A stretch of DNA of 64,000 nt from Pristiophorus japonicus. Lineage: Eukaryota. The notes under the pieces were generated by a model that did no database searches, had not been told where the DNA came from, and saw nothing but the letters and a program-made list of their open reading frames with translations. Below, piece by piece: positions 5,084-41,011 of this stretch. The stretch lies in the NCBI RefSeq assembly GCF_044704955.1, contig NC_091999.1:58094001-58158000 (forward strand), given 5' to 3'. Every line of letters begins with the position of its first letter. Within the stretch, counting starts at the first letter, position 1. The position numbers and the translations under genes are program-made.

Positions 5084-5159
5084 TAACCCATGTTGTACTT
5101 GCCCTGGGAATGTCGGATGGGACAGTGTAGAGGGAGCTTTAATCTGTATCTACTCCATG

Positions 5160-5972: not shown

Positions 5973-5974
5973 TC

Positions 5975-6756: not shown

Positions 6757-7510
6757 GTGTACCTAACTTGTGTTGTGCCTGTCCTGTGCATTTTTGGATT
6801 GGCTGTTTAGAGAGAAGTATACCCTGCATCTAAATTATGCTGTACTTGCCCAGTGGGACAGTGTAGACGGAGCTTCACTCCGTATCAAACATGTGCTGTA
6901 CATACCCTGGCAGTGTTTGATGGGACAGTGTAGAGGGAGCTTTACTCTGTATCTAACCCGTGCTGTACCTGCCCTGGGAGTGTTTGATAGGTCACTGTAG
7001 AGGGAGCTTTACTCTGTATGTAACATGTGCTGTACCTGCCACCAGTACGCTTGCAGCCTTCTGTAATAGGTCGGCACCGGAGGGACTGGAGTGTATCATC
7101 ACCTCAAGCAATCAAATTTTAATTTGATTTAAGTTTACCGTCCAAAGTTTAATTGGTTTATTTTTTCGGTTAAGGTTCCCCTCCCTCCTTTAACCAGGAT
7201 GCATTTGATTTACAGGTCAACAACAAAATAGTTGTGCTGTACCTGCCCTGGGATTGTTTCTTGGGACAGTGCAGAGGGAGCTTTATTCTGTATCTAACCC
7301 GTGCTGTGCATACCCTGGGAATACCTGGTGGAACAGTGCAGATGCATCCTTACTGTGTATTTAATATGTGCTGTACCTGCCCTGGGAGTGTTTGATGGTC
7401 AGCGTACAGCAAGCTTTAAATTGTAACTAACCCGTGCTGTACCTGCCCTGGGATTGTTTAGGACAGTACAGAGGGAGCTTTACTCAGTATATAACCCGTG
7501 CAATATCTGG
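6757..7510 (+). repeat. 67-bp minisatellite (degenerate), interrupted by a Tx1 fragment
   Basis: Repeated GGGACAGTGTAGAGGGAGCTTTACTCTGTATCTAACCCGTGCTGTACCTGCCCTGGG. Confidence 0.9.
7041..7232 (+). mobile_element. 5'-truncated Tx1-like LINE 3' end
   Basis: 15-bp TSD TGTGCTGTACCTGCC (7026-7040, 7233-7247); encodes TLAAFCNRSAPEGLECII..QILI*, homologous to the 6046-6337 fragment. Confidence 0.75.
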
Positions 7511-7539: not shown

Positions 7540-8760
7540 AATGTACCCAGCGTGCCCCTCGGGGTAGAATATGCCGCACCCAGACAACAGGAGCACAGTG
7601 CGCAGGCGCGGGCCCACGCAGTGTTTGGAGCATGCGCGGTGCATGTAATGGCGGAAAAGACATGTTTTTGAGAGGTTCCTCAGAAGTGTCTATTTCGGCG
7701 GGGCGGAGGGGAGTAATCGACCAGCAGGGCGCCGTGGAGGCTTCATAAACAACCGGTGCTCGCCGCAAGCACGCAATAATAACCGGATTATCGGCGGTTG
7801 CAGCTTCGGGGCTTTCTCCCGGTCACAGGTCCAGGCTAACGGCGGCCATCTTCGTACAGGAAGGCAGGTTCAGCGCACCGCCATTTTGATTCAGTGAGTA
7901 GCACCGCGCATGCGCAGCCATCTTGGTGCAGGAACAAAGTGAATGATGTCATTGTCTGGAACTGAACCCAGCCAGAGTCAGTACCTTCAGGGGAGGGGAA
8001 CCAGTGAGTGCAGAACTGATCCCAGCCAGAGTCAGTACCTTCAGGGGAGGGGAACCAGTGAGTGTAGAACTGAACCCAGCCAGAGTCAGTACCTTCAGGG
8101 GAGGGGAACCAGTGAGTGTAGAACTGAACCAAGCCAGAGTCAGTACCTTCAGGGGAGGGGAACCAGTGAGTGTAGAACTGAACCCAGCCAGAGTCAGTAC
8201 CTTCAGCGACCAATGATTGATTGGTGCCGTGGCCCCGCCCCCCTCCACGGATCGGCGCAGAGCGGCGAGCTGGTGCCCCGCTCCGCCTCGCCATTGGCTG
8301 CGGGCTGAGTGTTGGGGGCGGGCGGTTGGGTGGTTTGTTGGTGGGCTCCGCTCACAGCCTTTGAGCTCGGGGCCCAGGTGAGGCGGGGCGGAGTTGTGCG
8401 CAGGCGTGGGGCAGCCTATTGTGCGAGGTTAGCTGCGGACGGACGACTATTTGCCCCACCCCGCGGAGGAAGGATGATCAGCCTGGGCAGTGCGCTCAGC
8501 CTCCCTGAGGACTCACAGACTCACGGACACGCGCGGACGGTGAGATTTGGGTGGCGGCTGTGGGGCACCTTCGGGCGGGGACGGGCCTTGGTTATTGTCG
8601 GGGGTTGCCGGGAGTTCGGCCGCCAGCTTTGGGCAGCAGGGGTCCGCCCGCCACGGGGAGCAGGGAGCAACAGTGGCGGGGCTTCCTCGACATCACAATA
8701 CTTTCCATTGTCCCGCTGCAGGGCAGGGAGCATGCACGGCGGCCATCTTACTGCATGGAG
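7540..8760. promoter_or_regulatory. CpG island with Pol II promoter-like motifs
   Basis: CpG-dense; YY1-like sites (GGCGGCCATCTT 7841, CCGCCATTTTG 7878, GCCATCTTGG 7917, GGCGGCCATCTT ~8738); NRF1 palindrome GCGCATGCGC 7906-7915; CCAAT/ATTGG boxes ~8210-8224 and ~8293; GC boxes; donor-like CAG|GTGAGG ~8376. Confidence 0.65.
7959..8206 (-). repeat. Short array (4.6 units) of the 54-bp satellite
   Basis: GAACTGAACCCAGCCAGAGTCAGTACCTTCAGGGGAGGGGAACCAGTGAGTGTA, the reverse complement of the large-array monomer. Confidence 0.97.
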
Positions 8761-8984
8761 CAGGTGCAGGATGGGGACCAGTGACATGAACACATGAGAA
8801 CATCAGAAATAGGAGATGAGTCGGCCCTTTGGCCCCTCGAGCCTGCCGCCATTCAATAAGATGATGGCTGCAGCATCTGGGGTGGTTCTCCTTGGAGCAG
8901 TGAAGGTGCAGGGCAGGTTTAACAGGTGCTCACAATCAGGAAGGCTTTCGATTGAGTCAGGGAACAGAGTGGTTCTGCTCACAC

Positions 8985-9660
8985 AATCAGAGAATGGTTA
9001 CAGCACGGAAGGCCATTCGGCCCGTCGAGCCCTTGCCTACTCCCCTCCCTTTCCCCCGGCCCTGCAAAATGTTTTTTTTCAGATTCAACTTCCTTTTTTT
9101 TTGAATGCTGTGATTGATCTGCCTCCACCACCCTTTCAGGCCGTGCTTTCCGGATCCTAACACCTCACTGCGTAAAATAGATTTTTTTGATGTCACCTTT
9201 GGTTATTTTGCTATTCACCTTAAATCCATCTCCTTTGGTTCTCGACCCCTCCACCAATAGGAACAGTATCTCCCTATCTACTCTGTCCGGACCCCTCATT
9301 ACTTTGAACACTTCTATCAATTCTCCTCTCAACCTTCTCTGCTCCAAGGAGAACAACCCCAGCTTCTCGAGTCAATCCATGGAACTGAAGTCCCTCATCT
9401 CGTGAATCATTCTTGTCAATCTTTTCTGCACCCACTCTCAGGCCTTCACATCCTAATCTGCGGTGCCCAGAATTGGACACAATGCTCTAGTTGAGACCGA
9501 ACCAATGTTTGAAAATGTTCATCATAACCTCCTTCCTTTTGTACTCTGTGATGCCCAGGAGCCTGTAAGCTTTTTTACCTGCTTTCTCAACCTGTCGTGT
9601 CACCTTCAGTGATTTGTGCACATATACCCGCAGGTCTCACTGTTCATGCACCCCCTTTGG
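8985..9660 (-). mobile_element. CR1 LINE 3' fragment
   Basis: Minus strand encodes FSLEQRRLRGELIEVFKVMRGPDRVDREILF, the CR1 ORF2 C-terminus, plus a 3' UTR. Confidence 0.85.
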
Positions 9661-10229
9661 GATTGTACCCTTTAATTTATATTGCCTCTCCTTGTTTATT
9701 TAATCATGCTTTTCTAATTTTATTTCTTAACTCAGATTCACGGCCTCATTTTATTTCTTCCTCCGAGCCCCTCAACTTCATGTGGCAGCGTCATTTTGGC
9801 GAGTGGTGATTGATTGCCCTGGGAACCAACAGGGAGAGTGGTCAGAGGCCGGAGGGCCCAGGGAGCAGCGTGTTCTGCAACCAATCACGGTGCTTGAGGG
9901 GTGGATCCTGAGTCAGCTTGTCAGGTGAGTCTGTGTGAATCCCTGTTAAACTATTCATCTTTTAAAGTTAAATCGAGATTTCATTTGTCAACAAAACAGT
10001 TTAACATTTGTAAGTATTTTATTTCTATTTATGAGTTCCTATTATGAGTTTCAGACACTTCAGTGCCAAGTGGACCAGGCGTTTAAAGGTCATTCATTTC
10101 CCTCTTTCCATGTCGCTGTTAGTTAAAGCGACAGAGATTGATTTCCTCTCATTATACATCTTTAGCAGTTAAAGTAACATCCTTCCTGTTGGTAGTGAGT
10201 TACATTCTGTGCTGGGCGAGATGGCTGGT

Positions 10230-11887
10230 GGCATCAGCCTTTAAAATATTCATCCTCATGTTCAAATCTCTCCAGGGTCTCGCCCTTCCCTATCTCTGTA
10301 ACCTCCTCCAGCCCACCAACCCTCTTAATAGTTTGTTTTCTTTGGAACGGAGGAGACTGAGGGGATGTATAAAATTATGAGGGGCCCACATAGAGTGGAT
10401 AGGAAGGAGCTAGTTCCCTTCACAGAGGGGTCAGCAATCAGCAGAACTTTTTAGCCAGTACGTAGCAAGCCCAACAAGAGAGGGGGAAGTTCTGGACTTA
10501 GTATTCGGGACTGAAGCTGGGCAGGTGGAAGGGGTATCGATGCGACAGCATTTTGGTGATAGTGATCGTAATTCAGTTAGATTTCGTGTAGTTATGGAAA
10601 AGGACAAAGATAGACCAGGAATAAAAGTTCTCAATTGGGGAAAAGCCAATTTTACTAAGCTGAGATGTGATTTAGCCAAAGTGGACTGGAAACAGCTACT
10701 TGAAATGGTGAGAGATTGGGAAATGTTGGTGTTTAGAGTGACCTTGGAGTCCTTGTACACGAATCACTGAAAGTTAATATGCAGGTACAGCAAGCAATGA
10801 AGAAACCAAATGGTATGTCAACCTTTTATTGCAAGAGGATTTGAGGATAAGTGTAAACATAAGAACATAAGAAATAGGAACAGGAGTAGGCCGTACAGCC
10901 TCTCGAGCCTGCTCCGCCATTCAATAAGATCATGGCTGATCTGATCATGTACTCCGCTCCACTTACCCGCCCACTCCCCATAACCCCTCATCCCCTTATC
11001 CTTTAAGAAACTGTCTATTTCTGTCTTAAATTTATTTGATGTCCAACTTCCACAGCTCTCTGATGCAGTGAGTTACACAGATTTATAACCCTCAGAAGAA
11101 ATTCCTCCTCATCTTTGCTTTAAATGGGTGGCCCTTATTCTAAGATCATGCCCTCTAGTTCGAGTCTCCCGCATCAGTGGGAACATCCTCTCTCCATCCA
11201 CCTTGTCAAGCACCCTCATAATCTTATACATTTCGATAAGATCACCTCTCATTCTTCTGAATTTCAATAAGTAGAGGCCCAAACTACTCAACCTTTCCTC
11301 ATAAGTCAACCCCCTCATCCCCAGAATCAACCTAGTGAACCTTCTCTGAACGGGTTCTGAAGCAAGTAAATCCTTTCGTAAATATGGAAACCAAAACTGC
11401 ATGCAGTATTCCAGATGTGGCCTCACTAATACCTTATATAGCTGTAGCAAGAATTCCCTGCTTTTATACTCCATCCCCTTTGCAATAAAGGCCAAGATAC
11501 CATTGGCCTTCCTGATCACTTGCTGTCCCTGCATATTATCTTTTTGTGCTTCATACACAAGTGACCCCAGGTCCCACTGTACTGCAGCATTTTATAATCT
11601 TTCTCCATTTAAATAATAACTTGTTCCCAGACATCTTACTGCAATTATATAGGACCCTGGTGAGACTACACCTGGAGTATTGTGTACAGTTTGGCTGTTT
11701 ACCTAAGGAAGGATGTACATACCATTGAGGATGGTAACGAAGGTTCACCAGACTGATTCCTGGGATGGGGGGATTGTCCTGTGAGCAGAGATTGAGTAGA
11801 CCAGGCCGATATTCTCGACAGTTCAGAAGAATGAGAGGTGATCTCATTGAAACATAGAAAATTCTTACAGGGTTTGACAGTGTAGCT
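10230..11887. mobile_element. Nested LINE mosaic: L2-like piece and plus-strand CR1 pieces interrupted by a minus-strand CR1 (~10856-11625)
   Basis: Plus: HFGDSDRNSVRF..LNWGKANF and LLQLYRTLVRLHLEYCVQF; minus: KANGILAFIAKGMEYKSREFLLQLYKVLVRPHLEYC with an AACATAAG-repeat tail at ~10857. Confidence 0.85.
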
Positions 11888-11958
11888 CAGGGGTGTCAAA
11901 CATATGGGCCGCGGGCAGGACACGGCCCCCCAAGCCCCCTTCCTCCAGGCCCTCCGCG
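11888..11958 (+). mobile_element. hAT (Charlie-like) DNA transposon/MITE end
   Basis: CAGGGGTGTCAAACATATGGGCCGCGGGC resembles hAT-Charlie termini; paralog at 50747 is preceded by GGGTAGAT (Charlie target consensus nTCTAGAn); second TIR not seen. Confidence 0.55.
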
Positions 11959-12158
11959 NNNNNNNNNNNNNNNNNNNNNNNNNNNNNNNNNNNNNNNNNN
12001 NNNNNNNNNNNNNNNNNNNNNNNNNNNNNNNNNNNNNNNNNNNNNNNNNNNNNNNNNNNNNNNNNNNNNNNNNNNNNNNNNNNNNNNNNNNNNNNNNNNN
12101 NNNNNNNNNNNNNNNNNNNNNNNNNNNNNNNNNNNNNNNNNNNNNNNNNNNNNNNNNN
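11959..12158. other. Assembly gap (200 N)
   Basis: Run of exactly 200 N, probably a fixed-size scaffolding gap. Confidence 0.99.
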
Positions 12159-15100
12159 ACACTCACTGGTTCCCCTCCCCTGAAGGTGCTGACTCTGGCT
12201 GGGTTCAGTTCTACACTCACTGGTTCCCCTCCCCTGAAGGTGCTGACTCTGGCTCGGTTCAGTTCTACACTCACTGGTTCCCCTCCCCTGAAGGTACTGA
12301 CTCTGGCTGGGTTCAGTTCTACACTCACTGGTTCCCCTCCCCTGAAGGTACTGACTCTGGCTGGGTTCAGTTCTACACTCACTGGTTCCCCTCCCCTGAA
12401 GGTACTGACTCTGGCTGGGTTCAGTTCTACACTCACTGGTTCCCCTCCCCTGAAGGTGCTGACTCTGGCTGGGTTCAGTTCTACACTCACTGGTTCCCCT
12501 CCCCTGAAGGTACCGACTCTGGCTGGGTTCAGTTCTACACTCACTGATTCTCCTCCCCTGAAGGTACTGACTCTGGCTGGGTTCAGTTCTGCACTCACTG
12601 GTTCCCCTCCCCTGAAGGTGCTGACTCTGGCTGGGTTCAGTTCTACACTCACTGGTTCCCATCCCCTGAACGTACTGACTCTGGCTGGGTTCAGTTCTAC
12701 ACTCACTGATTCCCCTCCCCTGAAGGTGCTGACTCTGGCTGGGTTCAGTTCTACACTCACTGGTTCCCCTCCCCTGAAGGTACTGACTCTGGCTGGGTTC
12801 AGTTCTACACTCACTGGTTCCCCTCCCCTGAAGTTGCTGACTCTGGCTGGGTTCAGTTCTACACTCACTGGTTCCCCTCACCTGAAGGTACTGACTCTGG
12901 CTGGGTTCAGTTCTGCACTCACTGGTTCCTCTCCCCTGAAGGTACTGACTCTGGCTGGGTTCAATTCTACACTCACTGGTTCCCCTCCCCTGAAGGTACT
13001 GACTCTGGCTGGGTTCAGTTCTACACTCACTGGTTCCCATCCCCTGAAGGTACTGACTCTGGCTGGGTTCAGTTCTACACTCACTGGTTCCCCTCCCCTG
13101 AAGGTACTGACTCTGGCTGGGTTCAGTTCTACACTCACTGGTTCTCCTCCCCTGAAGGTACTGACTCTGGCTGGGTTCAGTTCTACACTCACTGGTTCCC
13201 CTCCCCTGAAGGTACTGACTCTGGCTGGGTTCAGTTCTACACTCACTGGTTCCCCTCCCCTGAAGGTCCTGACTCTGGCTGGGTTCAGTTCTACACTCAC
13301 TGGTTCCCCTCCCCTGAATGTACTGACTCTGGCTGGGTTCAGTTCTACACTCACTGGTTCCCCTCCCCTGAAGGTACTGACTCTGGCTGGGTTCAGTTCT
13401 ACACTCACTGGTTCCCCTCCCCTGAAGGTACTGACTCTGGCTGGGTTCAGTTCTACACTCACTGGTTCCCCTCCCCTGAAGGTACTGACTCTGGCTGGGT
13501 TCAGTTCTACACTCACTGGTTCCACTCCCCTGAAGGTACTGACTGTGGCTGGGTTCAGTTCTACACTCACTGGTTCTCCTCCCCTGAAGGTACTGGCTCT
13601 GGCTGGGTTCAGTTCTACACTCATTGGTTCCCATCCCCTGAAGGTACTGACTCTGGCTGGGTTCAGTTCTACACTCACTGGTTCCCCTCCTCTGAAGGTA
13701 CTGACTCTGGCTGGGTTCAGTTCTACACTCACTGGTTCCCCTCCCCTGAAGGTCCTGACTCTGGCTGGGTTCAGTTCTACACTCACTGGTTCCCCTCCCC
13801 TGAATGTACTGACTCTGGCTGGGTTCAGTTCTACACTCACTGGTTCCCCTCCCCTGAAGGTACTGACTCTGGCTGGGTTCAGTTCTACACTCACTGGTTC
13901 CCCTCCCCTGAAGGTACTGACTGTGGCTGGGTTCAGTTCTGCACTCACTGGTTCCCCTCCCCTGAAGGTGCTGACTCTGGCTGGGTTCAGTTCGACACTC
14001 ACTGGTTCCCCTTCCCTGAAGGTGCTGACTCTGGCTGGGTTCAGTTCTACACTCACTGGTTCCCCTCCCCTGAAGGTACTGACTCTGGCTGGGTTCAGTT
14101 CTACACTCTCTGGTTCCCCTCCCCTGAAGGTACTGACTCTGGCTGGGTTCAGTTCTACATGCACTGGTTCCCCTCCCCTGAAGGTACTGACCCTGGCTGG
14201 GTTCAGTTCTACACTCACTGGTTCCCCTCCCCTGAAAGGTACTAACTCTGGCTGGGATCAGTTCTACACTCTCTGGTTCCCCTCCCCTGAAGGTACTGAC
14301 TCTGGCTGGGTTCAGTTCTGCACTCACTGGTTCACCTCCCCTGAAGGTACTGACTCTGGCTGGGTTCAGTTCTACACTCTCTGGTTCCCCTCCCCTAAAA
14401 GTACTGACTCTGGCTGGGTTCAGTTCTGCACTCACTGGTTCCCCTCCCCTGAAGCTGCTGACTCTGGCTGGGTTCAGTTCTACACTCACTGGTTCCCCTC
14501 CCCTGAAGGTACTGATTCTGGCTGGGTTCAATTCTACACTCACTGGTTCCCCTCCCCTGAAGGTACTGACTCTGGCTGGGTTCAGTTCTACACTCACTTG
14601 TTCCCCTCCCCTGAAGGTACTGACTCTGGCTGGGTTCAGTTCTACACTCACTGGTTCCCCTCCCCTGAAGGTACTGACTCTGGCTGGGTTCAGTTCTACA
14701 CTCTCTGGTTCCCCTCCCCTGAAGTTACTGACTCTGGCTGGGTTCAGTTCTACACTCTCTGGTTTCCCTCCCCTGAAGGTACTGACTCTGGCTGGGTTCA
14801 GTTCTGCACTCACTGGTTCCCCTCCCCTGAAGGTGCTGACTCTGGCTGGGTTCAGTTCTACACTCACTGGTTCCCATCCCCTGAACGTACTGACTCTGGC
14901 TGGGTTCAGTTCTACACTCACTGATTCCCCTCTCCTGAAGGTGCTGACTCTGGCTGGGTTCAGTTCTACACTCACTGGTTCCCCTCCCCTGAAGGTACTG
15001 ACTCTGGCTGGGTTCAGTTCTACACTCACTGGTTCCCCTCCCCTGAAGTTGCTGACTCTGGCTGGGTTCAGTTCTACACTCACTGGTTCCCCTCACCTGA

Positions 15101-18100
15101 AGGTACTGACTCTGGCTGGGTTCAGTTCTGCACTCACTGGTTCCTCTCCCCTGAAGGTACTGACTCTGGCTGGGTTCAATTCTACACTCACTGGTTCCCC
15201 TCCCCTGAAGGTACTGACTCTGGCTGGGTTCAGTTCTACACTCACTGGTTCCCATCCCCTGAAGGTACTGACTCTGGCTGGGTTCAGTTCTACACTCACT
15301 GGTTCTCCTCCCCTGAAGGTACTGACTCTGGCTGGGTTCAGTTCTACACTCACTGGTTCCCCTCCCCTGAAGGTACTGACTCTGGCTGGGTTCAGTTCTA
15401 CACTCACTGGTTCCACTCCCCTGACGGTGCTGACACTGGCTGGGTTCAGTTATACACTCACTGGTTCCCCTCCCCTGAAGGTACTGACTCTGGCTGGGTT
15501 CAGTTCTACACTCTCTGGTTCTCCTCCCCTGAAGGAAACTGACTCTGGCTGGGTTCAGTTCTGCACTCACTGGTTCCCCTCCCCTGAAGGTACAGACTCT
15601 GGCTGGGTTCAGTTCTACACTCACTGGTTCCCCTCCCCTGAAGTTACTGACTCTGGCTGGGTTCAGTTCTACACTCACTGGTTCCCCTCCCCTGAAGGTG
15701 CTGACTCTGGCTGGGTTCAGTTCTGCACTCACTGGTTCACCTCCCCTGAAGGTACTGACTCTGGCTGGGTTCAGTTCTACACTCACTGGTTCCCCTCCCC
15801 TGAAGTTGCTGACTCTGGCTGGGTTCAGTTTTACACTCACTGGTTCCCCTCCCCTGAAGGTGCTGACTCTGGCTGGTTTCAGTTCTACACTCACTGGTTC
15901 CCCTCCCCTGAAGGTACTGACTCTGGCTGGGTTCAGTTCTACACTCACTGGTTCCCCTCCCCTGAAGGTACTGACTCTGGCTGGGTTCAGTTCTACACTC
16001 ACTGGTTCCCCTCCCCTGAAAGTACTGACTCTGGCTGGGTTCAGTTCTACACTCACTGGTTCCCCTCCCCTGAAGGTGCTGACTCTGGCTGGGTTCAGTT
16101 CTACACTCACTGGTTCCCCTCCCCTGAAGGTACTGACTCTGGCTGGGTTCAGTTCTACACTCACTGGGTCCACTCCCCTGAAGGTACTGACTCTGGCTGG
16201 GTTCATTTCTACACTCACTGGTTCCACTCCCCTGAAGGTACTGACTCTGGCTAGGTTCAGTTCTACACTCACTGGTTCCCCTCCCCTGAAGGTGCTGACT
16301 CTGGCTGGGTTCAGTTCTACACTCACTGGTTCCCCTCCCCTGAAGGTACTAACTCTGGCTGGGTTCAGTTCTGCACTCACAGATTCCCCTCCCCTGAAGG
16401 TACTGACACTGGCTGGGATCAGTTCTACACTCACTGGTTCCCCTCCCCTGAAGGTACTGACTCTGGCTGGGTTCATTTCTGCACTCTCTGGTTACCCTCC
16501 CCTGAAGGTACTGACTCTGGCTGGGTTCAGTTCTACACTCACTGGTTCCACTCCCCTGAAGGTACTGACTCTGGCTGGGTTCAGTTCTACACTCACTGGT
16601 TCCCCTCCCCTGAAGGTACTGACTCTGGCTGGGTTCAGTTCTACACTCACTGGTTCCCCTCCCCTGAAGGTACTGACTCTGTCTGGGTTCAGTTCTACAC
16701 TCACTGGTTCCCCTCCCCTGAAGGTGCTGACTCTGGCTGGGTTCAGTTCTACACTCACTGGTTCCCCTCCCCTGAAGGTACTGACTCTGGCTGGGTTCAG
16801 TTCTACACTCACTGGTTCTCCTCCCCTGAAGGTACTGACTCTGGCTGGGTTCAGTTCTACACTCACTGGTTCCCCTCCCCTGAAGGTACTGACTCTGGCT
16901 GGGTTCAGTTCTACACTCACTGGTTCCACTCCCCTGACGGTGCTGACACTGGCTGGGTTCAGTTCTACACTCACTGGTTCCCCTCCCCTGAAGGTACTGT
17001 CTCTGGCTGGGTTCAGTTCTACACTCACTGGTTCCCCTCCCCTGAAGGTACTGACTCTGGCTGGGTTCAGTTCTACACTCACTGGTTCCCCTCCCCTGAA
17101 GGTACTGACTCTGGCTGGGTTCAGTTCTACACTCTCTGGTTCTCCTCCCCTGAAGGTACTGACTCTGGCTGGGTTCAGTTCTGCACTCACTGGTTCCCCT
17201 CCCCTGAAGGTACAGACTCTGGCTGGGTTCAGTTCTACACTCACTGGTTCCCCTCCCCTGAAGTTACTGACTCTGGCTGGGTTCAGTTCTACACTCACTG
17301 GTTCCCCTCCCCTGAAGGTGCTGACTCTGGCTGGGTTCAGTTCTCCACTCACTGGTTCCCCTCCCCTGAAGGTACTGACTCTGGCTGGGTTCAGTTCTAC
17401 ACTCACTGGTTCCCCTCCCCTGAAGGTACTGACTCTGGCTGGGTTCAGTTCTACACTCACTGGTTCCCCTCCCCTGAAGGTACTGACTCTGGCTGGGTTC
17501 AGTTCTACACTCACTGGTTCCCCTCCCCTGAAGGTGCTGACTCTGGCTGGGTTCAGTTCTACACTCACTGGTTCCCCTCCCCTGAAGGTACTGACTCTGG
17601 CTGGGTTCAGTTCTACACTCACTGATTCTCCTCCCCTGAAGGTACTGACTCTGGCTGGGTTCAGTTCTGCACTCACTGGTTCCCCTCCCCTGAAGGTACT
17701 GACTCTGGCTGGGTTCAGTTCTACACTCACTGGTTCCCATCCCCTGAACGTACTGACTCTGGCTGGGTTCAGTTCTACACTCACTGATTCCCCTCCCCTG
17801 AAGGTACTGACTCTGGCTGGGTTCAGTTCTACACTCACTGGTTCCCCTCCCCTGAAGGTGCTGACTCTGGCTGGTTTCAGTTCCACACTCACTGGTTCCC
17901 ATCCCCTGAACGTACTGACTCTGGCTGGGTTCAGTTCTACACTCACTGATTCCCCTCCCCTGAAGGTACTGACTCTGGCTGGGTTCAGTTCTACACTCAC
18001 TGGTTCCCCTCCCCTGAAGGTACTGACTCTGGCTGGGTTCAGTTCTACACTCACTGGTTCCCCTCCCCTGAAGTTGCTGACTCTGGCTGGGTTCAGTTCA

Positions 18101-27100: not shown

Positions 27101-30100
27101 TCTGGCTGGGTTCAGTTCTACACTCACTGGTTCCCCTCCCCTGAAGGTACTGACTCTGGCTGGGTTCAGTTCTGCACTCACTGGTTCCACTCCCCTGACG
27201 GTGCTGACACTGGCTGGGTTCAGTTCTACACTCACTGGTTCCCCTCCCCTGAAGGTACTGTCTCTGGCTGGGTTCAGTTCTACACTCACTGGTTCCCCTC
27301 CCCTGAAGGTACTGACTCTGGCTGGGTTCAGTTCTACACTCACTGGTTCCCCTCCCCTGAAGGTACTGACTCTGGCTGGGTTCAGTTCTACACTCTCTGG
27401 TTCTCCTCCCCTGAAGGTACTGACTCTGGCTGGGTTCAGTTCTGCACTCACTGGTTCCCCTCCCCTGAAGGTACTGACTCTGGCTGGGTTCAGTTCTACA
27501 CTCACTGGTTCAACTCCCCTGAAGGTACTGACTCTGGCTGGGTTCAGTTCTACACTCACTGGTTCCCCTCCCCTGAAGGTGCTGACTCTGGCTGGGTTCA
27601 GTTCTACACTCACTGGTTCCCCTCCCCTGAAGGTGCTGACTCTGGCTGGGTTCAGTTCTACACTCACTGGTTCCCCTCCCCTGAAGGTACTGACTCTGGC
27701 TGGGTTCAGTTCTACACTCACTGGTTCCCCTCCCCTGAAGGTACTGACTCTGGCTGGGTTCAGTTCTACACTCACTGGTTCCCCTCCCCTGAAGGTACTG
27801 ACTCTGGCTGGGTTCAGTTCTACACTCACTGGTTCCCCTCCCCTGAAGGTGCTGACTCTGGCTGGGTTCAGTTCTACACTCACTGGTTCCCCTCCCCTGA
27901 AGGTACTGACTCTGGCTGGGTTCAGTTCTACACTCACTGATTCTCCTCCCCTGAAGGTACTGACTCTGGCTGGGTTCAGTTCTGCACTCACTGGTTCCCC
28001 TCCCCTGAAGGTGCTGACTCTGGCTGGGTTCAGTTCTACACTCACTGGTTCCCATCCCCTGAACGTACTGACTCTGGCTGGGTTCAGTTCTACACTCACT
28101 GATTCCCCTCCCCTGAAGGTGCTGACTCTGGCTGGGTTCAGTTCTACACTCACTGGTTCCCCTCCCCTGAAGGTACTGACTCTGGCTGGGTTCAGTTCTA
28201 CACTCACTGGTTCCCCTCCCCTGAAGTTGCTGACTCTGGCTGGGTTCAGTTCTACACTCACTGGTTCCCCTCACCTGAAGGTACTGACTCTGGCTGGGTT
28301 CAGTTCTGCACTCACTGGTTCCTCTCCCCTGAAGGTACTGACTCTGGCTGGGTTCAATTCTACACTCACTGGTTCCCCTCCCCTGAAGGTACTGACTCTG
28401 GCTGGGTTCAGTTCTACACTCACTGGTTCCCATCCCCTGAAGGTACTGACTCTGGCTGGGTTCAGTTCTACACTCACTGGTTCCCCTCCCCTGAAGGTAC
28501 TGACTCTGGCTGGGTTCAGTTCTACACTCACTGGTTCTCCTCCCCTGAAGGTACTGACTCTGGCTGGGTTCAGTTCTACACTCACTGGTTCCCCTCCCCT
28601 GAAGGTACTGACTCTGGCTGGGTTCAGTTCTACACTCACTGGTTCCCCTCCCCTGAAGGTCCTGACTCTGGCTGGGTTCAGTTCTACACTCACTGGTTCC
28701 CCTCCCCTGAATGTACTGACTCTGGCTGGGTTCAGTTCTACACTCACTGGTTCCCCTCCCCTGAAGGTACTGACTCTGGCTGGGTTCAGTTCTACACTCA
28801 CTGGTTCCCCTCCCCTGAAGGTACTGACTCTGGCTGGGTTCAGTTCTACACTCACTGGTTCCCCTCCCCTGAAGGTACTGACTCTGGCTGGGTTCAGTTC
28901 TACACTCACTGGTTCCACTCCCCTGAAGGTACTGACTGTGGCTGGGTTCAGTTCTACACTCACTGGTTCTCCTCCCCTGAAGGTACTGGCTCTGGCTGGG
29001 TTCAGTTCTACACTCATTGGTTCCCATCCCCTGAAGGTACTGACTCTGGCTGGGTTCAGTTCTACACTCACTGGTTCCCCTCCTCTGAAGGTACTGACTC
29101 TGGCTGGGTTCAGTTCTACACTCACTGGTTCCCCTCCCCTGAAGGTCCTGACTCTGGCTGGGTTCAGTTCTACACTCACTGGTTCCCCTCCCCTGAATGT
29201 ACTGACTCTGGCTGGGTTCAGTTCTACACTCACTGGTTCCCCTCCCCTGAAGGTACTGACTCTGGCTGGGTTCAGTTCTACACTCACTGGTTCCCCTCCC
29301 CTGAAGGTACTGACTGTGGCTGGGTTCAGTTCTGCACTCACTGGTTCCCCTCCCCTGAAGGTGCTGACTCTGGCTGGGTTCAGTTCGACACTCACTGGTT
29401 CCCCTTCCCTGAAGGTGCTGACTCTGGCTGGGTTCAGTTCTACACTCACTGGTTCCCCTCCCCTGAAGGTACTGACTCTGGCTGGGTTCAGTTCTACACT
29501 CTCTGGTTCCCCTCCCCTGAAGGTACTGACTCTGGCTGGGTTCAGTTCTACATGCACTGGTTCCCCTCCCCTGAAGGTACTGACCCTGGCTGGGTTCAGT
29601 TCTACACTCACTGGTTCCCCTCCCCTGAAGGTACTGACTCTGGCTGGGATCAGTTCTACACTCTCTGGTTCCCCTCCCCTGAAGGTACTGACTCTGGCTG
29701 GGTTCAGTTCTGCACTCACTGGTTCACCTCCCCTGAAGGTACTGACTCTGGCTGGGTTCAGTTCTACACTCTCTGGTTCCCCTCCCCTGAAGGTACTGAC
29801 TCTGGCTGGGTTCAGTTCTGCACTCACTGGTTCCCCTCCCCTGAAGCTGCTGACTCTGGCTGGGTTCAGTTCTACACTCACTGGTTCCCCTCCCCTGAAG
29901 GTACTGATTCTGGCTGGGTTCAATTCTACACTCACTGGTTCCCCTCCCCTGAAGGTACTGGCTCTGGCTGGGTTCAGTTCTACACTCACTTGTTCCCCTC
30001 CCCTGAAGGTACTGACTCTGGCTGGGTTCAGTTCTACACTCACTGGTTCCCCTCCCCTGAAGGTACTGACTCTGGCTGGGTTCAGTTCTACACTCTCTGG

Positions 30101-33100
30101 TTCCCCTCCCCTGAAGTTACTGACTCTGGCTGGGTTTAGTTCTACACTCTCTGGTTTCCCTCCCCTGAAGGTACTGACTCTGGCTGGCTTCAGTTCTGCA
30201 CTCACTGGTTCCCCTCCCCTGAAGGTACTGACTCTGGCTGGGTTCAGTTCTGCACTCACTGGTTCCCCTCCCCTGAAGGTACTGACTCTGGCTGGGTTCA
30301 GTTCTACACTCACTGATTCCCCTCCCCTGAAGGTACTGACTCTGGCTGGGTTCAGTTCTACACTCACTGGTTCCCCTCCCCTGAAGGTGCTGACTCTGGC
30401 TGGGTTCAGTTCTACACTCACTGGTTCCCCTCCCCTGAAGGTACTGACTCTGGCTGGGTTCAGTTCTACACTCACTGGTTCCCCTCCCCTGAAGGTACTG
30501 ACTCTGGCTGGGTTCAGTTCATCACTCACTGGTTCCCCTCCCCTGAAGGTACTGACTCTGGCTGGGTTCAGTTCTACACTCACTGGTTCCCCTCCCCTGA
30601 AGGTGCTGAATCTGGCTGGGTTCAGTTCTGCACTCACTGGTTCCCCTCCCCTGAAGGTACTGATTCTGGCTGGGTTCAGTTCTACACTGACTGGTTCCCC
30701 TCCCCTGAAGGTACTGACTCTGGCTGGGTTCAGTTCTACACTCACTGGTTCCCCTCCCCTGAAGGTACTGACTCTGGCTGGGTTAAGTTCTACACTCACT
30801 GGTTCCCCTCCCCTGAAGGTGCTGACTCTGGCTGGGTTCAGTTCCACACTCACTGGTTCTCCTCCCCTGAAGGTACGGACTCTGGCTGGGTTCAGTTAGA
30901 CACTCACTGGTTCCCCTCCCCTGAATGTGCTGACTCTGGCTGGGTTCAGTTCTACGCTCACTGGTTCCCCTCCCCTGAAGGTACTGACTCTGGCTGGGTT
31001 CAGTTCTACACTCACTGGTTCCCCTCCCCTGAAGGTACTGACTCTGGCTGGGTTCAGTTCTACACTCACTGGTTCCCCTCCCCTGAAGGTGCTGACTCTG
31101 GCTGGGTTCAGTTCTACACTCACTGGTTCCCCTCCCCTGAAGGTACTGGCTCTGTCTGGGTTCAGTTCTGCACTCACTGGTTCCCCTCCCCTGAAGGTGC
31201 TGACTCTGGCTGGGTTCAGTTCTACACTCACTGGTTCCCCTCCCCTGAAGGTACTGACTCTGGCTGGGTTCAGTTCTACACTCACTGGTTCTCCTCCCCT
31301 GAAGATACTGACTCTGGCTGGGTTCAGTTCTACACTCACTGGTTCCACTCCCCTGAATGTACTGACTCTGGCTGGGTTCAGTTCTACACTCACTGGTTCC
31401 CCTCCCCTGAAGGTACTGATTCTGGCTGGGTTCAGTTCTACACTCACTGGTTCCCCTCCCCTGAAGGTACTGATTCTGGCTGGGTTCAGTTCTACACTCA
31501 CTGGTTCCCCTCCCCTGAAGGTACTGACTCTGGCTGTGTTCAGTTCTACACTCACTGGTTCCCCTCCCCTGAAGATACTGACTCTGGCTGGGTTCAGTTC
31601 TACACTCACTGGTTCCCCTCCCCTGAAGGTGCTGACTCTGGCTGTGTTCAGTTCTACACTCACTGCTTCCCCTCCCCTGAATGTACTGACTCTGGCTGGG
31701 TTCAGTTCTACACTCTCTGGTTCCCCTACCCTGAAGCTGCTGACTCTGGCTGGGTTCAGTTCTACACTCACTGGTTCCCCTCCCCTGAAGGTACTGACTC
31801 TGGCTGGGTTCAGTTCTACACACAGTTTCCCCTCCCCTGAAGGTACTGACTCTGGCTGGGTTCAGTTCTACACTCACTGGTTCCCCTTCCCTGAAGGTAC
31901 TGACTCTGTCTGGGTTCAGTTCTACACTCACTGGTTCTCCTCCCCTGAAGGTACTGACTCTGGCTGGGTTCAGTTCGACACTCACTGGTTCCCCTCCCCT
32001 GAAGGTGCTGACTCTGGCTGGGTTCAGTTCTACACTCACTGGTTCCCTTCCACTGAAGGTACTGACTCTGGCTGGGTTCAGTTCTGCACTCACTGGTTCC
32101 CCTTCCCTGAAGGTGCTGACTCTGGCTGGGTTCAGTTCTGCACTCACTGGTTCCCCTCCCCTGAAGGTACTGACTCTGGCTGGGTTCAGTTCTACACTCA
32201 CTGGTTCCCCTCCCCTGAAGGTACAGACTCTGGCTGGGTTCAGTTCTACACTCACTGGTTCCCCTCCCCTGAAGGTGCTGACTCTGGCTGTGTTCAGTTC
32301 TACACTCACTGGTTCCCCTCCCCTGAAGGTACTGACTCTGGCTGGGTTCAGTTCTACACTCACTGGTTCCCCTCCCCTGAAGGTGCTGACTCTGGCTGGG
32401 TTCAGTTCTACACTCACTGGATCCCCTCCCCTGAAGGTACTGACTCTGGCTGGGTTCAGTTCTACACTCACTGGTTCCCCTCCCCTGAAGGTACTGACTC
32501 TGGCTGGGTTCAGTTCTACACTCTCTGGTTTCCCTCCCCTGATGGTACTGACTCTGGCTGGGTTCAGTTCTACACTCACTGGTTCCCCTCCCCTGTAGGT
32601 ACTGACTCTGGCTGGGTTCAGTTCTACACTCACTGGTTCCCCTCCCCTGAAGGTACTGACTCTGGCTGGGTTCAGTTCTACACTCACTGGTTCCCCTCCC
32701 CTGAAGGTACTGACTCTGGCTGGGTTCAGTTCTACACTCACTGGTTCCCCTCCCCTGAAGGTGCTGACTCTGGCTGGGTTCAGTTCTACACTCACTGGTT
32801 CCCCTCCCCTGAAGGTACTGACTCTGGCTGGGTTCAGTTCTACACTCACTGGTTCTCCTGCCCTGACAGTACTAACTCTGGCTGGGTTCAGTTCTACACT
32901 CACAGGTTCCCCTCCCCTGAAGGGACTGACTCTGGCTGGGTTCAGTTCTACACTCACTGGTTCCCCTCCCCTGAAGGTACTGACTCTGGCTGGGTTCAGT
33001 TCTACACTCACTGGTTCTCCTCGCCTGAAGGTACTGACTCAGGCTGGGTTCAGTTCTACACTCACTGGTTCCCCTCCCCTGAAGGTACTGACTCTGGCTG

Positions 33101-36100
33101 GGTTCAGTTCTACACTCACTGGTTCCCCTCCCCTGAAGGTACTGACTCTGGCTGGGTTCAGTTCTACACTCACTGGTTCCCCTCCCCTGAAGGTACTGAC
33201 TCTGGCTGGGTTCTGTTCTACACACTCTGGTTCCCCTCCCCTGAAGGTACTGACTCTGGTTGGGTTCAGTTCTACACTCACTGGTTCCCCTCCCCTGAAG
33301 GTACTGACTCTGTCTGGGTTCAGTTCTACACTCACTGGTTCCCCTCCCCTGAAGGTGCTGACTCTGGCTGGGTTCAGTTCTACACTCACTGGTTCCCCTC
33401 CCCTGAAGGTACTGACTCTGGCTGGGTTCAGTTCTACACTCACTGGTTCTCCTCCCCTGAAGGTACTGACTCTGGCTGGGTTCAGTTCTACACTCACTGG
33501 TTCCCCTCCCCTGAAGGTGCTGACTCTGGCTGGGTTCAGTTCTACACTCACTGGTTCCCCTCCCCTGAAGGTACTGACTCTGGCTGGGTTCAGTTCTGCA
33601 CTCACTGGTTCCCCTTCCCTGAAGGTGCTGACTCTGGCTGGGTTCAGTTCTACACTCACTGGTTCCCCTCCCCTGAAGGTGCTGACTCTGGCTGGGTTCA
33701 GTTCTACACTCTCTGGTTCCCCTCCCCTGAAGGTACTGACTCTGGCTGGGTTCAGTTCTGCACTCACTTGTTCCCCTCCCCTGAAGGTACTGACTCTGGC
33801 TGGGTTCAGTTCTACACTCACTGGTTCCCCTCCCCTGAAGGTACTGACTCTGGCTGGGTTCAGTTCTCCACTCACTGGTTCCCCTCCCCTGAAGGTACTG
33901 ACTCTGGCTGGGTTCAGTTCTACACTCACTGGTTCCCCTCCCCTGAAGGTGCTGACTCTGGCTGGGTTCAGTTCTAAACTCACTGGTTCCCCTCCCCTGA
34001 AGGTACTGACTCTGGCTGGGTTCAGTTCTACACTCACTGGTTCTCCTCCCCTGAAGGTACTGACTCTGGCTGGGTTCAGTTCTACACTCACTGGTTCCCC
34101 TCCCCTGAAGGTACTGACTCTGGCTGGGTACAGTTCTACACTCACTGGTTCCCCTCCCCTGAAGGTACTGACTCTGGCTGGGTTCAGTTCTACACTCACT
34201 GGTTCCCCTCCCCTGAAGGTGCTGACTCTGGCTGGGTTCAGTTCTACACTCACTGGTTCCCCTCCCCTGAAGGTGCTGACTCTGGCTGGGTTCAGTTCTG
34301 CACTCACTGGTTCCCCTCCCCTGATGGTGCTGACTCTGGCTGGGTTCAGTTCTACACTCACTGGTTCCCCTCCCCTGAAGGTACTGACTCTGGCTAGGTT
34401 CAGTTCTACACTCACTGGTTCCCCTCCCCTGAAGGTGCTGACTCTGGCTGGGTTCAGTTCTACACTCACTGGTTCCCCTCCCCTGAAGTTGCTGACTCTG
34501 GCTGGGTTCAGTTCTACACTCACTGGTTCCCCTCCCCTGAAGGTACTGATTCTGGCTGGGTTCAGTTCTACACTCACTGGTTCCCCTCCACTGAAGGTAC
34601 TGACTCCGGCTGGGTTCAGTTCTACACTCACTGGTTCTCCTCCCCTGAAGGTACTGACTCTGGCTGGGTTCAGTTCTACACTCACTGGTTCCCCTCCCCT
34701 GAAGGTGCTGACTCTGGCTGGGTTCATTTCTACACTCACTGGTTCCCTTCCCCTGAAGGTACTGACTCTGGCTGGGTTCAGTTCTACACTCTCTGGTTCC
34801 CCTCCCCTGAAGGTACTGACTCTGGCTGAGTTCAGTTCTACACTCACTGGTTCCCCTCCCCTGAAGGTGCTGACTCTGGCTGGGTTCAGTTCTACACTCA
34901 CTGGTTCCCCTTCCCTGAAGGTGCTGAATCTGGCTGGGTTCAGTTCTACACTCACAGGTTCCCCTTCCCTGAAGGTGCTGAATCTGGCTGGGTTCAGTTC
35001 TACACTCACTGGTTCCCCTCCCCTGAAGGTACTGACTCTGGCTGGGTTCAGTTCTGCACTCACTGGTTCCCCTCCCCTGAAGGTGCTGACTCTGGCTGGG
35101 TTCAGTTCTACACTCACTGGTTCCCCTCCCCTGAAGGTACTGACTCTGGCTGGGTTCAGTTCTACACTCACTGGTTCCCCTCCCCTGAAGGAACTGACTC
35201 TGGCTGGGTTCCGTTCTACACTCTCTGGTTCCCCTCCCCTGAAGGTACTGACTCTGGCTGGGTTCAGTTCTACACTCACTGGTTCCCCTCCCCTGAAGGT
35301 ACTGACTCTGGCTGGGTTCAGTTCTACACTCACTGGTTCCCACTCCCGGAAGGTACTGACTCTGGCTGGGTTCAGTTCTACACTCAGTGGTTCCCCTCCC
35401 CTGAAGGTAATGACTCTGGCTGGGTTCAGTTCTACACTCTCTGGTTCCCCTCCCCTGAAGGTGCTGACTCTGGCTGGGTTCAGTTCTACACTCACTGGTT
35501 CCCCTCCCCTGAAGGTACTGACTCTGGCTGGGTTCAGTTCTACACTCACTGGTTCTCCTCCCCTGAAGGTACTGACTCTGTCTGGGTTCAGTTCTACACT
35601 CTCTGGTTCCCCTCCCCTGAAGGTACTGACTCTGGCTGGGTTCAGTTCTACACTCACTGGTTCCCCTCCCCTGAAGGTACTGACTCTGGCTGGGTTCAGT
35701 TCTACACCCAGTGGTTCCCCTCCCCTGAAGGTACTGACTCTGGCTGGGTTCAGTTCTACACTCATTGGTTCCCCTCCCCTGAAGGTACTGACTCTGTCTG
35801 GGTTCAGTTCTACACTCACTGGTTCCCCTCCCCTGAAGGTACTGACTCTGGCTGGGTTCAGTTCTACACTCACTGGTTCCCCTCCCCTGAAGGTGCTGAC
35901 TCTGGCTGGGTTCAGTTCTACACTCACTGGTTCCCCTCCCCTGAAGGTACTGACTCTGGCTGGGTTCAGTTCTATACTCACTGGTTCCCCTCCCCTGAAG
36001 GTGCTGACTCTGGCTGGGTTCAGTTCTGCACTCACTGGTTCCCCTCCCCTGAAGGTGCTGACTCTGGCTGGGTTCAGTTCTACACTCTCTGGTTCCCCTC

Positions 36101-38078
36101 CCCTGAAGGTACTGACTCTGGCTGGGTTCAGTTCTGCACTCACTGGTTCCCCTCCCCTGAAGGTACTGACTCTGGCTGGGTTCAGTTCTACACTCACTGG
36201 TTCCCCTCCCCTGAAGGTACTGACTCTGGCTGTGTTCAGTTCTACATTCACTGGTTCCCCTCTCCTGAAGGTACTGACTCTGGCTGGGTTCAGTTCTACA
36301 CTCACTGGTTCCCCTCCCCTGAAGGTACTGACTCTGGCTGGGTTCAGTCCTACACTCACTGGTTCCCCTCCCCTGAAGGTACTGACTCTGGCTGGGTTCA
36401 GTTCTGCACTCACTGGTTCCCCTCCCCTGAAGGTGCTGACTCTGGCTGGGTTCAGTTCTACACTCACGTGTTCCCCTCCCCTGAAGGTACTGACTCTGGC
36501 TGGGTTCAGTTCTACACTCACTGGTTCCCCTCCCCTGAAGGTACTGACTCTGGCTGGGTTCAGTTCTACACACACTGGTTCCCCTCCCCTGAAGGTACTG
36601 ACTCTGGCTGGGTTCAGTTCTACACTCACTGGTTCCCCTCCCCTGAAGGAACTGACTCTGGCTGGGTTCAGTTCTACACTCACTGGTTCCCCTCCCCTGA
36701 AGGTGCTGACTCTGGCTGGGTTCAGTTCTACACTCACTGGTTCCCCTCCCCTGAAGGTACTGACTCCGGCTGGGTTCAGTTCTACACTCACTGGTTCTCC
36801 TCCGCTGAAGGTACTGACTCTGGCTGGGTTCAGTTCTACACTCACTGGTTCCCCTCCCCTGAAGGTGCTGACTCTGGCTGGGTTCAGTTCTACACTCACT
36901 GGTTCCCCTCCCCTGAAGGTACTGACTCTGGCTGGGTTCAGTTCTACACTCACAGGTTCCCCTCCCCTGAAGGTGCTGACTCTGGCTGGGTTCAGTTCTA
37001 CACTCACTGGTTCCCCTCCCCTGAAGGTACTCACTCTGGCTGGGTTCCGTTCTACACTCTCTGGTTCCCCTCCCCTGAAGGTACTGACTCTGGCTGGGTT
37101 CAGTTCTACACTCACTGGTTCCCCTCCCCTGAAGGTACTGACTTTGGCTGGGTTCAGTTCTACACTCACTGGTTCCCACCCCCTGAAGGTACTGACTCTG
37201 GCTGGGTTCAGTTCTACACTCTCTGGTTCCCCTCCCCTGAAGGTACTGACTCTGGCTGGGTTCAGTTCTACACTCACTGGTTCCCCTCCCCTGAAGGTAC
37301 TGACTCTGGCTGGGTTCAGTTCTACACCCAGTGGTTCCCCTCCCCTGAAGGTACTGACTCTGGCTGGGTTCAGTTCTACACTCACTGGTTCCCCTCCCCT
37401 GAAGGTACTGACTCTGTCTGGGTTCAGTTCTACACTCACTGGTTCCCCTCCCCTGAAGATGCTGACTCTGGCTGGGTTCAGTTCTACACTCACTGGTTCC
37501 CCTCCCCTGAAGGTACTGATTCTGGCTGGGTTCAGTTCTGCACTCACTGGTTCCCCTCCCCTGAAGGTACTGACTCTGGCTGGGTTCAATTCTACACTCA
37601 CTGGTTCCCCTCCCCTGAAGGTACTGACTCTGGCTGGGTTCAGTTCTACACTCTCTGGTCCCCCTCCCCTGAAGGTGCTGACTCTGGCTGGGTTCAATTC
37701 TACACTCACTGGTTCCCCTCCCCTGAAGGTACTGACTCTGGCTGGGTTCAATTCTACACTCACTGGTTCCCCTCCCCTGAAGGTACTGACTCTGGCTGGG
37801 TTCAGTTCTACACTCTCTGGTCCCCCTCCCCTGAAGGTGCTGACTCTGGCTGGGTTCAATTCTACACTCACTGGTTCCCCTCCCCTGAAGGTGCTGACTC
37901 TGGCTGGGTTCAATTCTACACTCACTGGTTCCCCTCCCCTGAAGGTACTGACTCTGGCTGGGTTCAGTTCTACACTCACTGGTTCCCCTCCCCTGAAGGT
38001 ACTGACTCTGGCTGGGTTCAGTTCTACACTCACTGGTTCCCCTCCCCTGAAGGTACTGACTCTGGCTTGGTTCAGTTC
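12159..38078 (+). repeat. 54-bp tandem satellite, ~480 units (ACACTCACTGGTTCCCCTCCCCTGAAGGTACTGACTCTGGCTGGGTTCAGTTCT)
   Basis: Uninterrupted 25.9 kb of 54-bp monomers, usually 0-2 substitutions each; left end lies in the gap. Confidence 0.99.
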
Positions 38079-38079
38079 C

Positions 38080-38500
38080 AGACACTGACATCTTTCACGT
38101 TGTACCTGCACCAAGATGGCCACGCATGCGCGGTGCTACTCACTGCATCAAGATGGCGCGGCGCTGAACCTGCCCTGCTGTACCAAGATGGCCGCCGTTA
38201 GCCTGGTCCTGTGACCGGGAGAAAGCCCGGAGGCTGGAACCGCCGATATTCCGGTTATTATTCCGGGCTTGCGGCTGGCACCGGTTGTTTGTGAAGCCTC
38301 CCCACCTCCCTGCTGGTCCCTTACTCCGCTCTGTCCCGCTGAAAAGGACACTTCTGAGGAGCCTGTCCAAAACATATCCGCTCCGCCATTACACGCGTCG
38401 CGCATGCTCCAAACACCCCCAGTACCCGCGTCTGCGCACTGAGCTCCTGTAGTCTGGGTGATGCACATTCTCCCCCGCGGGGCATGCTGGGTACATAAGG
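38080..38500. promoter_or_regulatory. CpG-rich paralog of 7540-7958 with three YY1-like sites and an NRF1-like site
   Basis: CCAAGATGGCC 38111, CGCATGCGC ~38123, CAAGATGGCG ~38149, CCAAGATGGCCGCC ~38183. Confidence 0.6.
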
Positions 38501-38539
38501 CCATGAATAATTGGAGCAGGAGTGGGCCAGATACTGCTC

Positions 38540-39345
38540 GGTTTATATACAGAGTAAAGCTGCCTCTGTGTCCCAGGGCAGGTACAGCACGGGTTAGTTA
38601 CAATTTAAAGCTTGCTGTACGCTGACCCATCAAACACTCCCAGGGCAGGTGCAGCACATATTAAATACACAGTAAGGATCCAGCTACACTGTCCCACCAG
38701 GTATTCCCAGGGTATGCACAGCACGGGTTAGATACATAATAAAACTCCCTCTATACTGTCCCAAGAAAAAAATCACAGGGCAGGTACAGCACAACTATTT
38801 TGTTGTTGATCTGCAAATCAAATGCACCCTGATTAAAGGGCGAAGGGGACACCATAACCGACAAATAAACAATTAAACTTTGGACGTTAAACTTAAATCA
38901 AGTTAAAATTTGGTTGCTGGAGGCGATGCTGCACTCCAGTCCCTCCGATGCCGACCTCTTACAGAAGGCTGCAAGCGTATTGGTGGCAGGTACAGCATAT
39001 GTTAGATACAGAGTAAAGCTCCCTCTACACTGTCCCATCAAACACTCCCAGGGCATGTACAGCACATGTTAGATACAGAGTAAAGCTCCATCTACAGTGA
39101 CGCATCAAATACTCCCAGGTCAGGTACAGCATCGGTTAGATACGGAGTAAAGCTCCCTCTACACTGTCCCATTAAACACTCCCAGTGCAGGCACAGCATG
39201 GGTTAGATACAGAGTGAAGCTCCCTCTACACATTCCCATCAAACACTCGCGGGGCAAGTACAGCATAATTTAGATGCAGGGTAAACGTCTCTCTAAACAG
39301 CCAATGCAAAAATCCACAGGACAGGCACAACACAGGTTAGGTACG
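38540..39345 (-). repeat. 67-bp minisatellite with a Tx1-like insert (38794-38984)
   Basis: Mirror of 6757-7510; TSD GGCAGGTACAGCA(C/T)A on both sides of the insert. Confidence 0.88.
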
Positions 39346-40940: not shown

Positions 40941-41011
40941 AGTAGATACAGATTAAAGCTCCCTATGCACTGTCTCAGCAGACATTCCCAGGGCACGTAC
41001 AACATGGGTTA

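What the first reader, a model, noticed from the sequence alone, without database searches (positions are those of the whole stretch)
7959..38078. Satellite birth in a promoter-like CpG island: ~5 units in one paralog, at least 480 in the other
Seen: the flank of the 26-kb array (38079 onward) is the reverse complement of the flank of the 4.6-unit array at 7959-8206, and both join the flank at the same base (..CAGTTCCAGACA). Two paralogs of one locus therefore differ about 100-fold in copy number. Inference: a minisatellite inside a CpG island expanded into a macrosatellite in one copy, or collapsed in the other, giving a before/after pair in one window. The gap makes 480 a minimum.
Basis: partly seen in the sequence, partly recalled or inferred. 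Interest (0 to 1): 0.8.

Follow-up and report, generated by a model that had tools for sequence, protein, structure and literature searches.

The report
Minisatellite expanded inside duplicated promoter cassette
A short 54-base repeat in a CpG-rich segment that is copied hundreds of times along one chromosome has ballooned to 50-400 kb in one small lineage of copies, giving a within-genome series for how short repeats become satellite blocks, although the repeat itself is old and widespread.

Summary
Observation confirmed; interpretation partly right. The two arrays are 2 of at least 278 copies of a CpG-rich cassette (flank A, 54-mer array, flank B), nearly all on C23; in 25 of 73 sampled copies it lies just upstream of a C2H2 zinc-finger ORF. 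100 sampled copies hold 1-50 units (median 10). The window's array continues, through a 12-kb overlap identical but for one unit, into a contig scaffolded 25 Mb away: about 980 units, ending in flank B. A sister cassette is gap-free from A to B with 1,453 units; a third has about 7,300 (20% sampled). The first two form one clade whose nearest relatives have 3-23 units, so this is expansion in place, not collapse or insertion, built from 1-19 kb block duplications. But the 4.6-unit copy is a distant paralog (87%), beside the big array only through a scaffold gap, so it is no 'before' state; and the unit is no newborn: 53,444 matches genome-wide, with other large blocks on C27 and C1772. Promoter activity is not shown. 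A well-resolved new case of a known process.

The parts
1..7040 (+). Upstream arm of the duplicated segment (retroelement remnants, 67-bp repeats)
   Evidence: 91.6% to 46077-39052 inverted
7560..7958 (+). Flank A: CpG-rich half upstream of the array, three YY1-like, two NRF1-like sites and a GC box (motif names recalled)
   Evidence: GC 0.574, O/E 0.99, motif scan; homologue lies upstream of sense C2H2 ORFs in 25 of 73 paralogs
7959..8206 (+). Short array, 4.6 units of 54 bp, CpG-free
   Evidence: 4.6-5.6 units in 5 of 5 near-identical copies
8207..8760 (+). Flank B: CpG-rich half with CCAAT and GC boxes; 8257-8679 is deleted in the clade that includes the giant arrays
   Evidence: GC 0.675, O/E 0.78; deletion mapped
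8914..11916 (+). Segment C, duplicated at 47751-50775 and after flank B in other paralogs
   Evidence: 86.9% over 3,054 bp
11959..12158 (.). Scaffold gap; the join is not a real adjacency
   Evidence: 200 N; the array right of it continues in the contig at C23:33,023,772; three near-identical C23 copies of the left contig also end in gaps within 1.3 kb of this spot, one showing a CT-rich tract
12159..38078 (-). First 480 units of a ~980-unit (53 kb) array of the same 54-mer
   Evidence: 475 of 480 units are 54 bp, 2.3% from the reference unit; joined length 52,998 bp
12159..24334 (-). Overlap with the start of the contig at C23:33,023,772
   Evidence: identical but for one 54-bp unit; 11,235 bp exact; 27 other array pairs share at most 382 bp
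38079..39171 (-). Flank A' of the giant-array cassette
   Evidence: 87% to flank A; 96% to the sister at C23:23.59 Mb
39052..46077 (-). Upstream arm of the giant-array cassette
   Evidence: 91.6% to 1-7040

Best explanation
A segmentally duplicated, CpG-rich cassette of a zinc-finger/tRNA gene region carries a variable 54-bp minisatellite, usually 2-50 units. In one sub-lineage (flank A' plus a flank B that had already lost 423 bp) the array grew in place to at least ~150 units, the cassette was then duplicated, and each daughter kept growing separately to ~980, 1,453 and ~7,300 units. Shown: both junctions kept, restriction to one clade, shared unit order between two sisters, interiors made of exact block duplications of 19-349 units. 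Inferred: out-of-register recombination (unequal exchange or template switching) whose step size grows with array length, so arrays past a threshold run away; most likely neutral. The window's array is cut by the assembly and continues at C23:33.02 Mb; the 4.6-unit neighbour is a distant paralog placed beside it by scaffolding.
For: Gap-free, uninterrupted A'-1,453 units-B cassette at C23:23.59-23.67 Mb. Overlap identical but for one unit, ending in flank B. Tree of 99 flanks: the two giants with an A' flank are a clade (100/99), sister pair 7.4 and 12.3 units, 7 of 7 other members of the enclosing clade 3.4-23.4. 100 loci: 57 at most 10 units, 40 with 10-30, 3 above 30, largest 49.6. Collinear unit blocks between the window's and the 23.59 array score 63-107 against at most 27 in 3 shuffles. 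Exact repeats of 600 bp or more cover 35% and 49% of these arrays at many different periods; lags 1-2 show no excess. Downstream flanks of the three giants 98.2-98.6% identical.
Against: No reads span the overlap; it could join two nearly identical copies or alleles. The 393-kb array was only 20% sampled, has no A' flank in the assembly, so is not in the tree, and shows no clear unit collinearity with the other two. The 100-locus sample came from a pattern that misses A'-type junctions and covers C23 14-38 Mb plus two other loci. The tree is midpoint-rooted on 443 columns. The recombination mechanism and the threshold are inferred from one assembly; one locus of 77 units is the only intermediate seen with flank A.
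Confidence: 0.8

Rival explanations
1. The long state is ancestral and short arrays are collapses.
For: The tree has no outgroup root.
Against: 97 of 99 rows hold at most ~50 units, including all 7 nearest relatives; it would need dozens of independent collapses.
Confidence: 0.04
2. A block of existing satellite (C27, C1772 or unseen) was copied into the cassette by conversion or insertion.
For: The unit family is abundant (53,444 matches) and large blocks exist elsewhere.
Against: Both junctions are kept and edge units are collinear between sisters; 0 of 85 multi-change variants of the window's array occur in 10 kb of C27 or 10 kb of C1772. Only those 10-kb samples were compared.
Confidence: 0.06
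3. The size is inflated by the assembler looping through a shorter array.
For: Exact internal repeats up to 2,826 bp; array broken at a gap.
Against: 145 distinct unit types in 480 units; 34-46% of variant units in the first 200 are unique; a sister has its own periods and no gap.
Confidence: 0.04
4. The expansion was selected because it silences or insulates neighbouring ZNF or tRNA genes.
For: It sits within a CpG island next to ZNF and tRNA clusters.
Against: No excess CpG decay in giant-array flanks against sisters (2 and 3 of 56 sites, versus 1-4 of 58-60); the flank B deletion predates the expansion.
Confidence: 0.06

Closest known systems
Satellites grown from short arrays inside LTR retrotransposons in Lathyrus sativus (PMC7004042, abstract seen)
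   Same: Many dispersed short arrays in a shared carrier, a few expanded to long arrays.
   Different: Carrier here is a segmental-duplication cassette nearly confined to one chromosome, and copies can be put on a tree, giving direction and ancestry.
Library model and short-array intermediates of satellite DNA (PMC10048060, passages seen)
   Same: An existing repeat family is amplified locally; short arrays are the proposed precursor.
   Different: Here precursor, sisters and products coexist with alignable flanks in one genome.
CharSat01-52 of characiform fish (PMC8210747, abstract seen)
   Same: A ~52-bp repeat kept in small clusters and highly amplified in one lineage.
   Different: That contrast is between species; this one is between paralogs.
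Beta-satellite blocks in the human 19p12 zinc-finger cluster (Eichler 1998; title only, in the reference list of PMC8125562; content recalled)
   Same: Short-unit satellite duplicated together with C2H2 ZNF clusters.
   Different: Unrelated unit and lineage; here the repeat sits in the 5' region of the cassette.
Human macrosatellites D4Z4, DXZ4 (recalled)
   Same: Large locus-specific tandem arrays.
   Different: Their units are kilobases and CpG-rich; this unit is 54 bp and CpG-free.

Membership tests
CpG island (criteria recalled) | At least 500 bp, GC at least 55%, CpG O/E at least 0.65 | tested here: met
   7560-8760: 1,201 bp, 0.616, 0.72
Active promoter | Transcription start and spliced RNA from the island | tested here: inconclusive
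   Only contigs of unrecorded kind could be laid
5' region of C2H2 ZNF genes | Sense C2H2 ORF shortly downstream | tested here: inconclusive
   Met in 25 of 73 paralogs, none antisense (Pfam on 2 of them); not met for the window's B-type copies, where the nearest C2H2 ORFs lie 21-35 kb beyond the array
Minisatellite / VNTR | 10-100 bp unit, copy number varies between copies of the locus | tested here: met
   54 bp; 1-50 units over 100 loci
Minisatellite / VNTR | Length polymorphism between individuals | not testable with these tools
   One assembly
Satellite DNA | Arrays of tens to hundreds of kb | tested here: met
   53, 78 and ~393 kb
Satellite DNA | One regular higher-order repeat | tested here: not met
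   Many periods (28, 34, 64, 91, 285; 27, 42, 162, 175, 251 units), few copies each
Satellite DNA | Heterochromatic or centromeric location | not testable with these tools
   No chromatin data
Macrosatellite (D4Z4 type, definition recalled) | Unit of kilobases | tested here: not met
   54-bp unit
Transposon-carried tandem repeat | Carrier dispersed over chromosomes | tested here: not met
   2 of 278 junction matches on C1-C22 (list runs in contig order); 55 of 60 A'-type matches on C23; homology runs 8-11 kb beyond the island
Transposon-carried tandem repeat | Terminal repeats and target-site duplications | not tested
   Not examined

The most novel reading that the evidence does not exclude
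One lineage of ZNF-region cassettes crossed a length threshold once (about 100-200 units) and passed on a runaway state: every descendant found (3 of 3) grew to 50-400 kb independently while hundreds of paralogs stay below ~80 units, and the same route may have seeded the 0.4-0.8 Mb block on C27. That would be a rooted, single-genome series from minisatellite to satellite block in which the threshold and the step-size law can be measured.
Probability: 0.3. Interest if true: 0.65.

Novelty: new member of a known kind. Interest (0 to 1): 0.45.

Why it matters
How short tandem arrays become long satellite blocks is usually inferred between species. Here hundreds of paralogs with alignable flanks supply controls, direction and sister comparisons in one genome, so threshold and recombination models can be tested directly. 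The overlap also marks a likely scaffolding error on C23 (simplest reading: the block between 33.02 and 58.11 Mb is flipped, or at least its two ends are misjoined).

Tried and rejected
(1) Idea that the flank B deletion marks or causes giant arrays: the exact deletion-junction pattern hit 3 places, all giant, but 7 of 7 short-array relatives carry the same deletion; rejected as sufficient cause. (2) Methylation spreading seen as CpG decay in giant flanks: no excess. (3) Expression: no RNA holder listed. Three runs of unrecorded kind and one DNA run were laid on 7040-10400; contigs were short, the 15 joints shown (258 more not shown) were almost all in the 67-bp repeats; inconclusive. (4) Rfam on 40 kb of four paralogous stretches: 0 matches. 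(5) ORFs of over 1,000 aa through the array follow from a 54-bp unit without stops in several frames; not taken as genes. (6) G-quadruplex drive: G4Hunter-type maximum 1.32, mean 0.33; weak, same unit in short arrays. (7) One further run-off candidate (L210) ended at 27.7 units. (8) Flanks of the C27 and C1772 blocks were not reached. (9) Eight paper searches (listings seen) showed no description of this repeat; the library lacks most subscription papers and repeat databases, and no supplements were read. PMC11406177 and PMC10547255 (passages) did not bear on it. (10) Earlier findings: none.

Full report
Observation. The flanks are inverted paralogs: 87.0% over the 1,108 bp next to the arrays and 91.6% over the next 7 kb, leaving the flank at the same base. 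The short array splits a 1,201-bp island (GC 0.616, CpG O/E 0.72) into flank A and flank B and has no CpG itself.

Family. The window is G000:C23:58,094,001-58,158,000 of a 5.9-Gb genome; that it is a shark is my recall from its repeats and ZNF sequences, not a tool result. A 30-letter flank A/array junction pattern has 278 exact matches, control 0; only 2 lie on C1-C22. An 18-letter A'-type pattern has 60 more, 55 on C23, control 1. I measured the first 100 listed of the 278 (27 by pairing with end junctions; 73 fetched): median 9.8 units, 57 at most 10, 40 with 10-30, 3 above 30, largest 49.6. In 25 of the 73 a sense-strand ORF with C2H2 fingers lies within 2.5 kb downstream, none antisense (Pfam zf-C2H2 on the 2 tested). 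So flank A is most likely the 5' region of a ZNF gene family; in B-type copies such as the window's the nearest C2H2 ORFs are 21-35 kb away. No start site was shown.

The unit is old. A 23-letter piece has 53,444 exact matches, the first 100 listed lying on C1-C3 with spacings of about 54-70 bp, and it occurs with other flanks. Large blocks exist on C27 (8 of 8 samples between 26.9 and 27.3 Mb; bounded by 26.70 and 27.50 Mb) and C1772 (4 of 4 samples from 770 kb to the scaffold end; not at 740 kb). In 10 kb of each, 0 of the window array's 85 multi-change variants recur.

True size. The gap-side 12,176 bp of the window's array equal the first 12,122 bp of the contig at C23:33,023,772 but for one 54-bp unit; 11,235 bp are exact. 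The other 27 of 28 array pairs share at most 382 bp. That contig carries 39,200 bp of array and ends in flank B lacking window 8257-8679. Joined: 52,998 bp, about 980 units. Since one end of the array is contiguous with A' and the other with B, neither gap join to a 4.6-unit contig (at 58.11 and at 33.02 Mb; those two contigs are 99.1-99.4% alike over 24 kb) can be real. One flip of the block between the two gaps explains both (inference). The side-by-side pair in the window is therefore a scaffolding product.

Sisters. The closest relative of A' (96%) heads a gap-free, uninterrupted array of 1,453 units (78,467 bp) at C23:23.59-23.67 Mb that ends in the same deleted flank B. A third array spans 60,990,935-61,383,971 (393 kb, ~7,280 units if continuous; 80 kb sampled, all array) with the same B flank, but its other end joins tRNA-cluster sequence without A'. 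The three downstream flanks are 98.2-98.6% alike over 10.5 kb; three copies cannot all be alleles.

Direction. On a tree of 99 distinct flank A sequences (loci with short or duplicate flanks left out), the two giants with A' form a clade (100/99), sister to copies of 7.4 and 12.3 units, inside a 9-row clade (100/100) whose other 7 members have 3.4-23.4 units and already carry the flank B deletion. The 4.6-unit copy falls in a distant clade with four copies of 4.6-5.6 units. Expansion is derived; the deletion came first and did not suffice; the real 'before' proxies are at 42.33 and 53.40 Mb.

Mechanism. Shown: the window's and the 23.59-Mb arrays share collinear unit blocks (units 15-93 with 80-160; 119-169 with 1221-1424; scores 63-107, shuffles at most 27) and related edge units, so their ancestor had roughly 150 units or more. 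Each then amplified different parts: exact repeats of 600 bp or more cover 35% and 49% at offsets of 19-349 units; the first 200 units of the window's array keep 34-46% unique variants against 1-4% in the next 300; lags 1-2 show no excess. Against: the 393-kb array shows no clear collinearity with either (best 24.8 against 14.7 shuffled for one pair, the rest at shuffle level). Inferred: out-of-register homologous exchange or template switching in kb steps, not unit-by-unit slippage nor one rolling-circle event; a length threshold would explain the scarcity of intermediates (one of 77 units with flank A). No sign of function: CpG decay in giant flanks equals that of sisters.

Comparison. It works like the growth of satellites from short arrays in a shared carrier (PMC7004042, abstract) and like library-type amplification (PMC10048060, passages); CharSat01-52 is a fish parallel between species (PMC8210747, abstract); satellite inside a ZNF cluster is known from human 19p12 (title only). 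It is not a D4Z4-type macrosatellite (54-bp unit) and the carrier is not a dispersed transposon. Eight searches listed no account of this repeat, which does not show that it is undescribed.

Verdict. Its value is the built-in series of paralogs. Interest 0.45.

Noticed in passing
G000:C23 gaps at 33,023,572-33,023,771 and 58,105,959-58,106,158 (window 11959-12158): Probable scaffolding error: the contigs right of the two gaps overlap each other by 12 kb; a flip of the 25-Mb block between them would fix both joins.
   Followed up: partly
G000:C23:60,990,935-61,383,971: A ~393-kb array of the same unit whose upstream end joins tRNA-cluster sequence directly, without flank A' and without a gap: deletion or misassembly.
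   Followed up: partly
G000:C27 about 26.9-27.3 Mb; C1772 about 770-928 kb: Large blocks of the unit, more diverged (2.1 and 2.4 changes per unit against 1.2-1.4); flanks unknown.
   Followed up: partly
window 11958 and paralogs at C23 33.02, 40.38, 46.97 Mb: Four near-identical contigs all end within 1.3 kb of the same spot; one shows a long CT-rich tract there, a likely sequencing dropout.
   Followed up: partly
window 57479-61755: Cluster of 7 tRNA genes in ~2-kb duplicated units, repeated in neighbouring duplicated segments.
   Followed up: no
window 322-646, 6854-7501, 38985-39344, 45441-46963: A second, diverged 67-bp tandem repeat family in short arrays.
   Followed up: no
G000:C23, e.g. 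16,542,951(-)/16,544,513(+), 17,074,393(-)/17,075,955(+): Flank A junctions often occur as divergent pairs 1.5-8 kb apart; in these two pairs the + member leads to a ZNF ORF.
   Followed up: no
each 54-bp unit: Holds a splice-donor-like GTGAGT and an acceptor-like CCTTCAG (consensus recalled); whether they are used is untested.
   Followed up: no
window 1170-1823, 3513-4061, 4822-5283, 11109-11591, 62962-63726: Broken ORFs resembling LTR-retrotransposon and LINE proteins (labels recalled).
   Followed up: no
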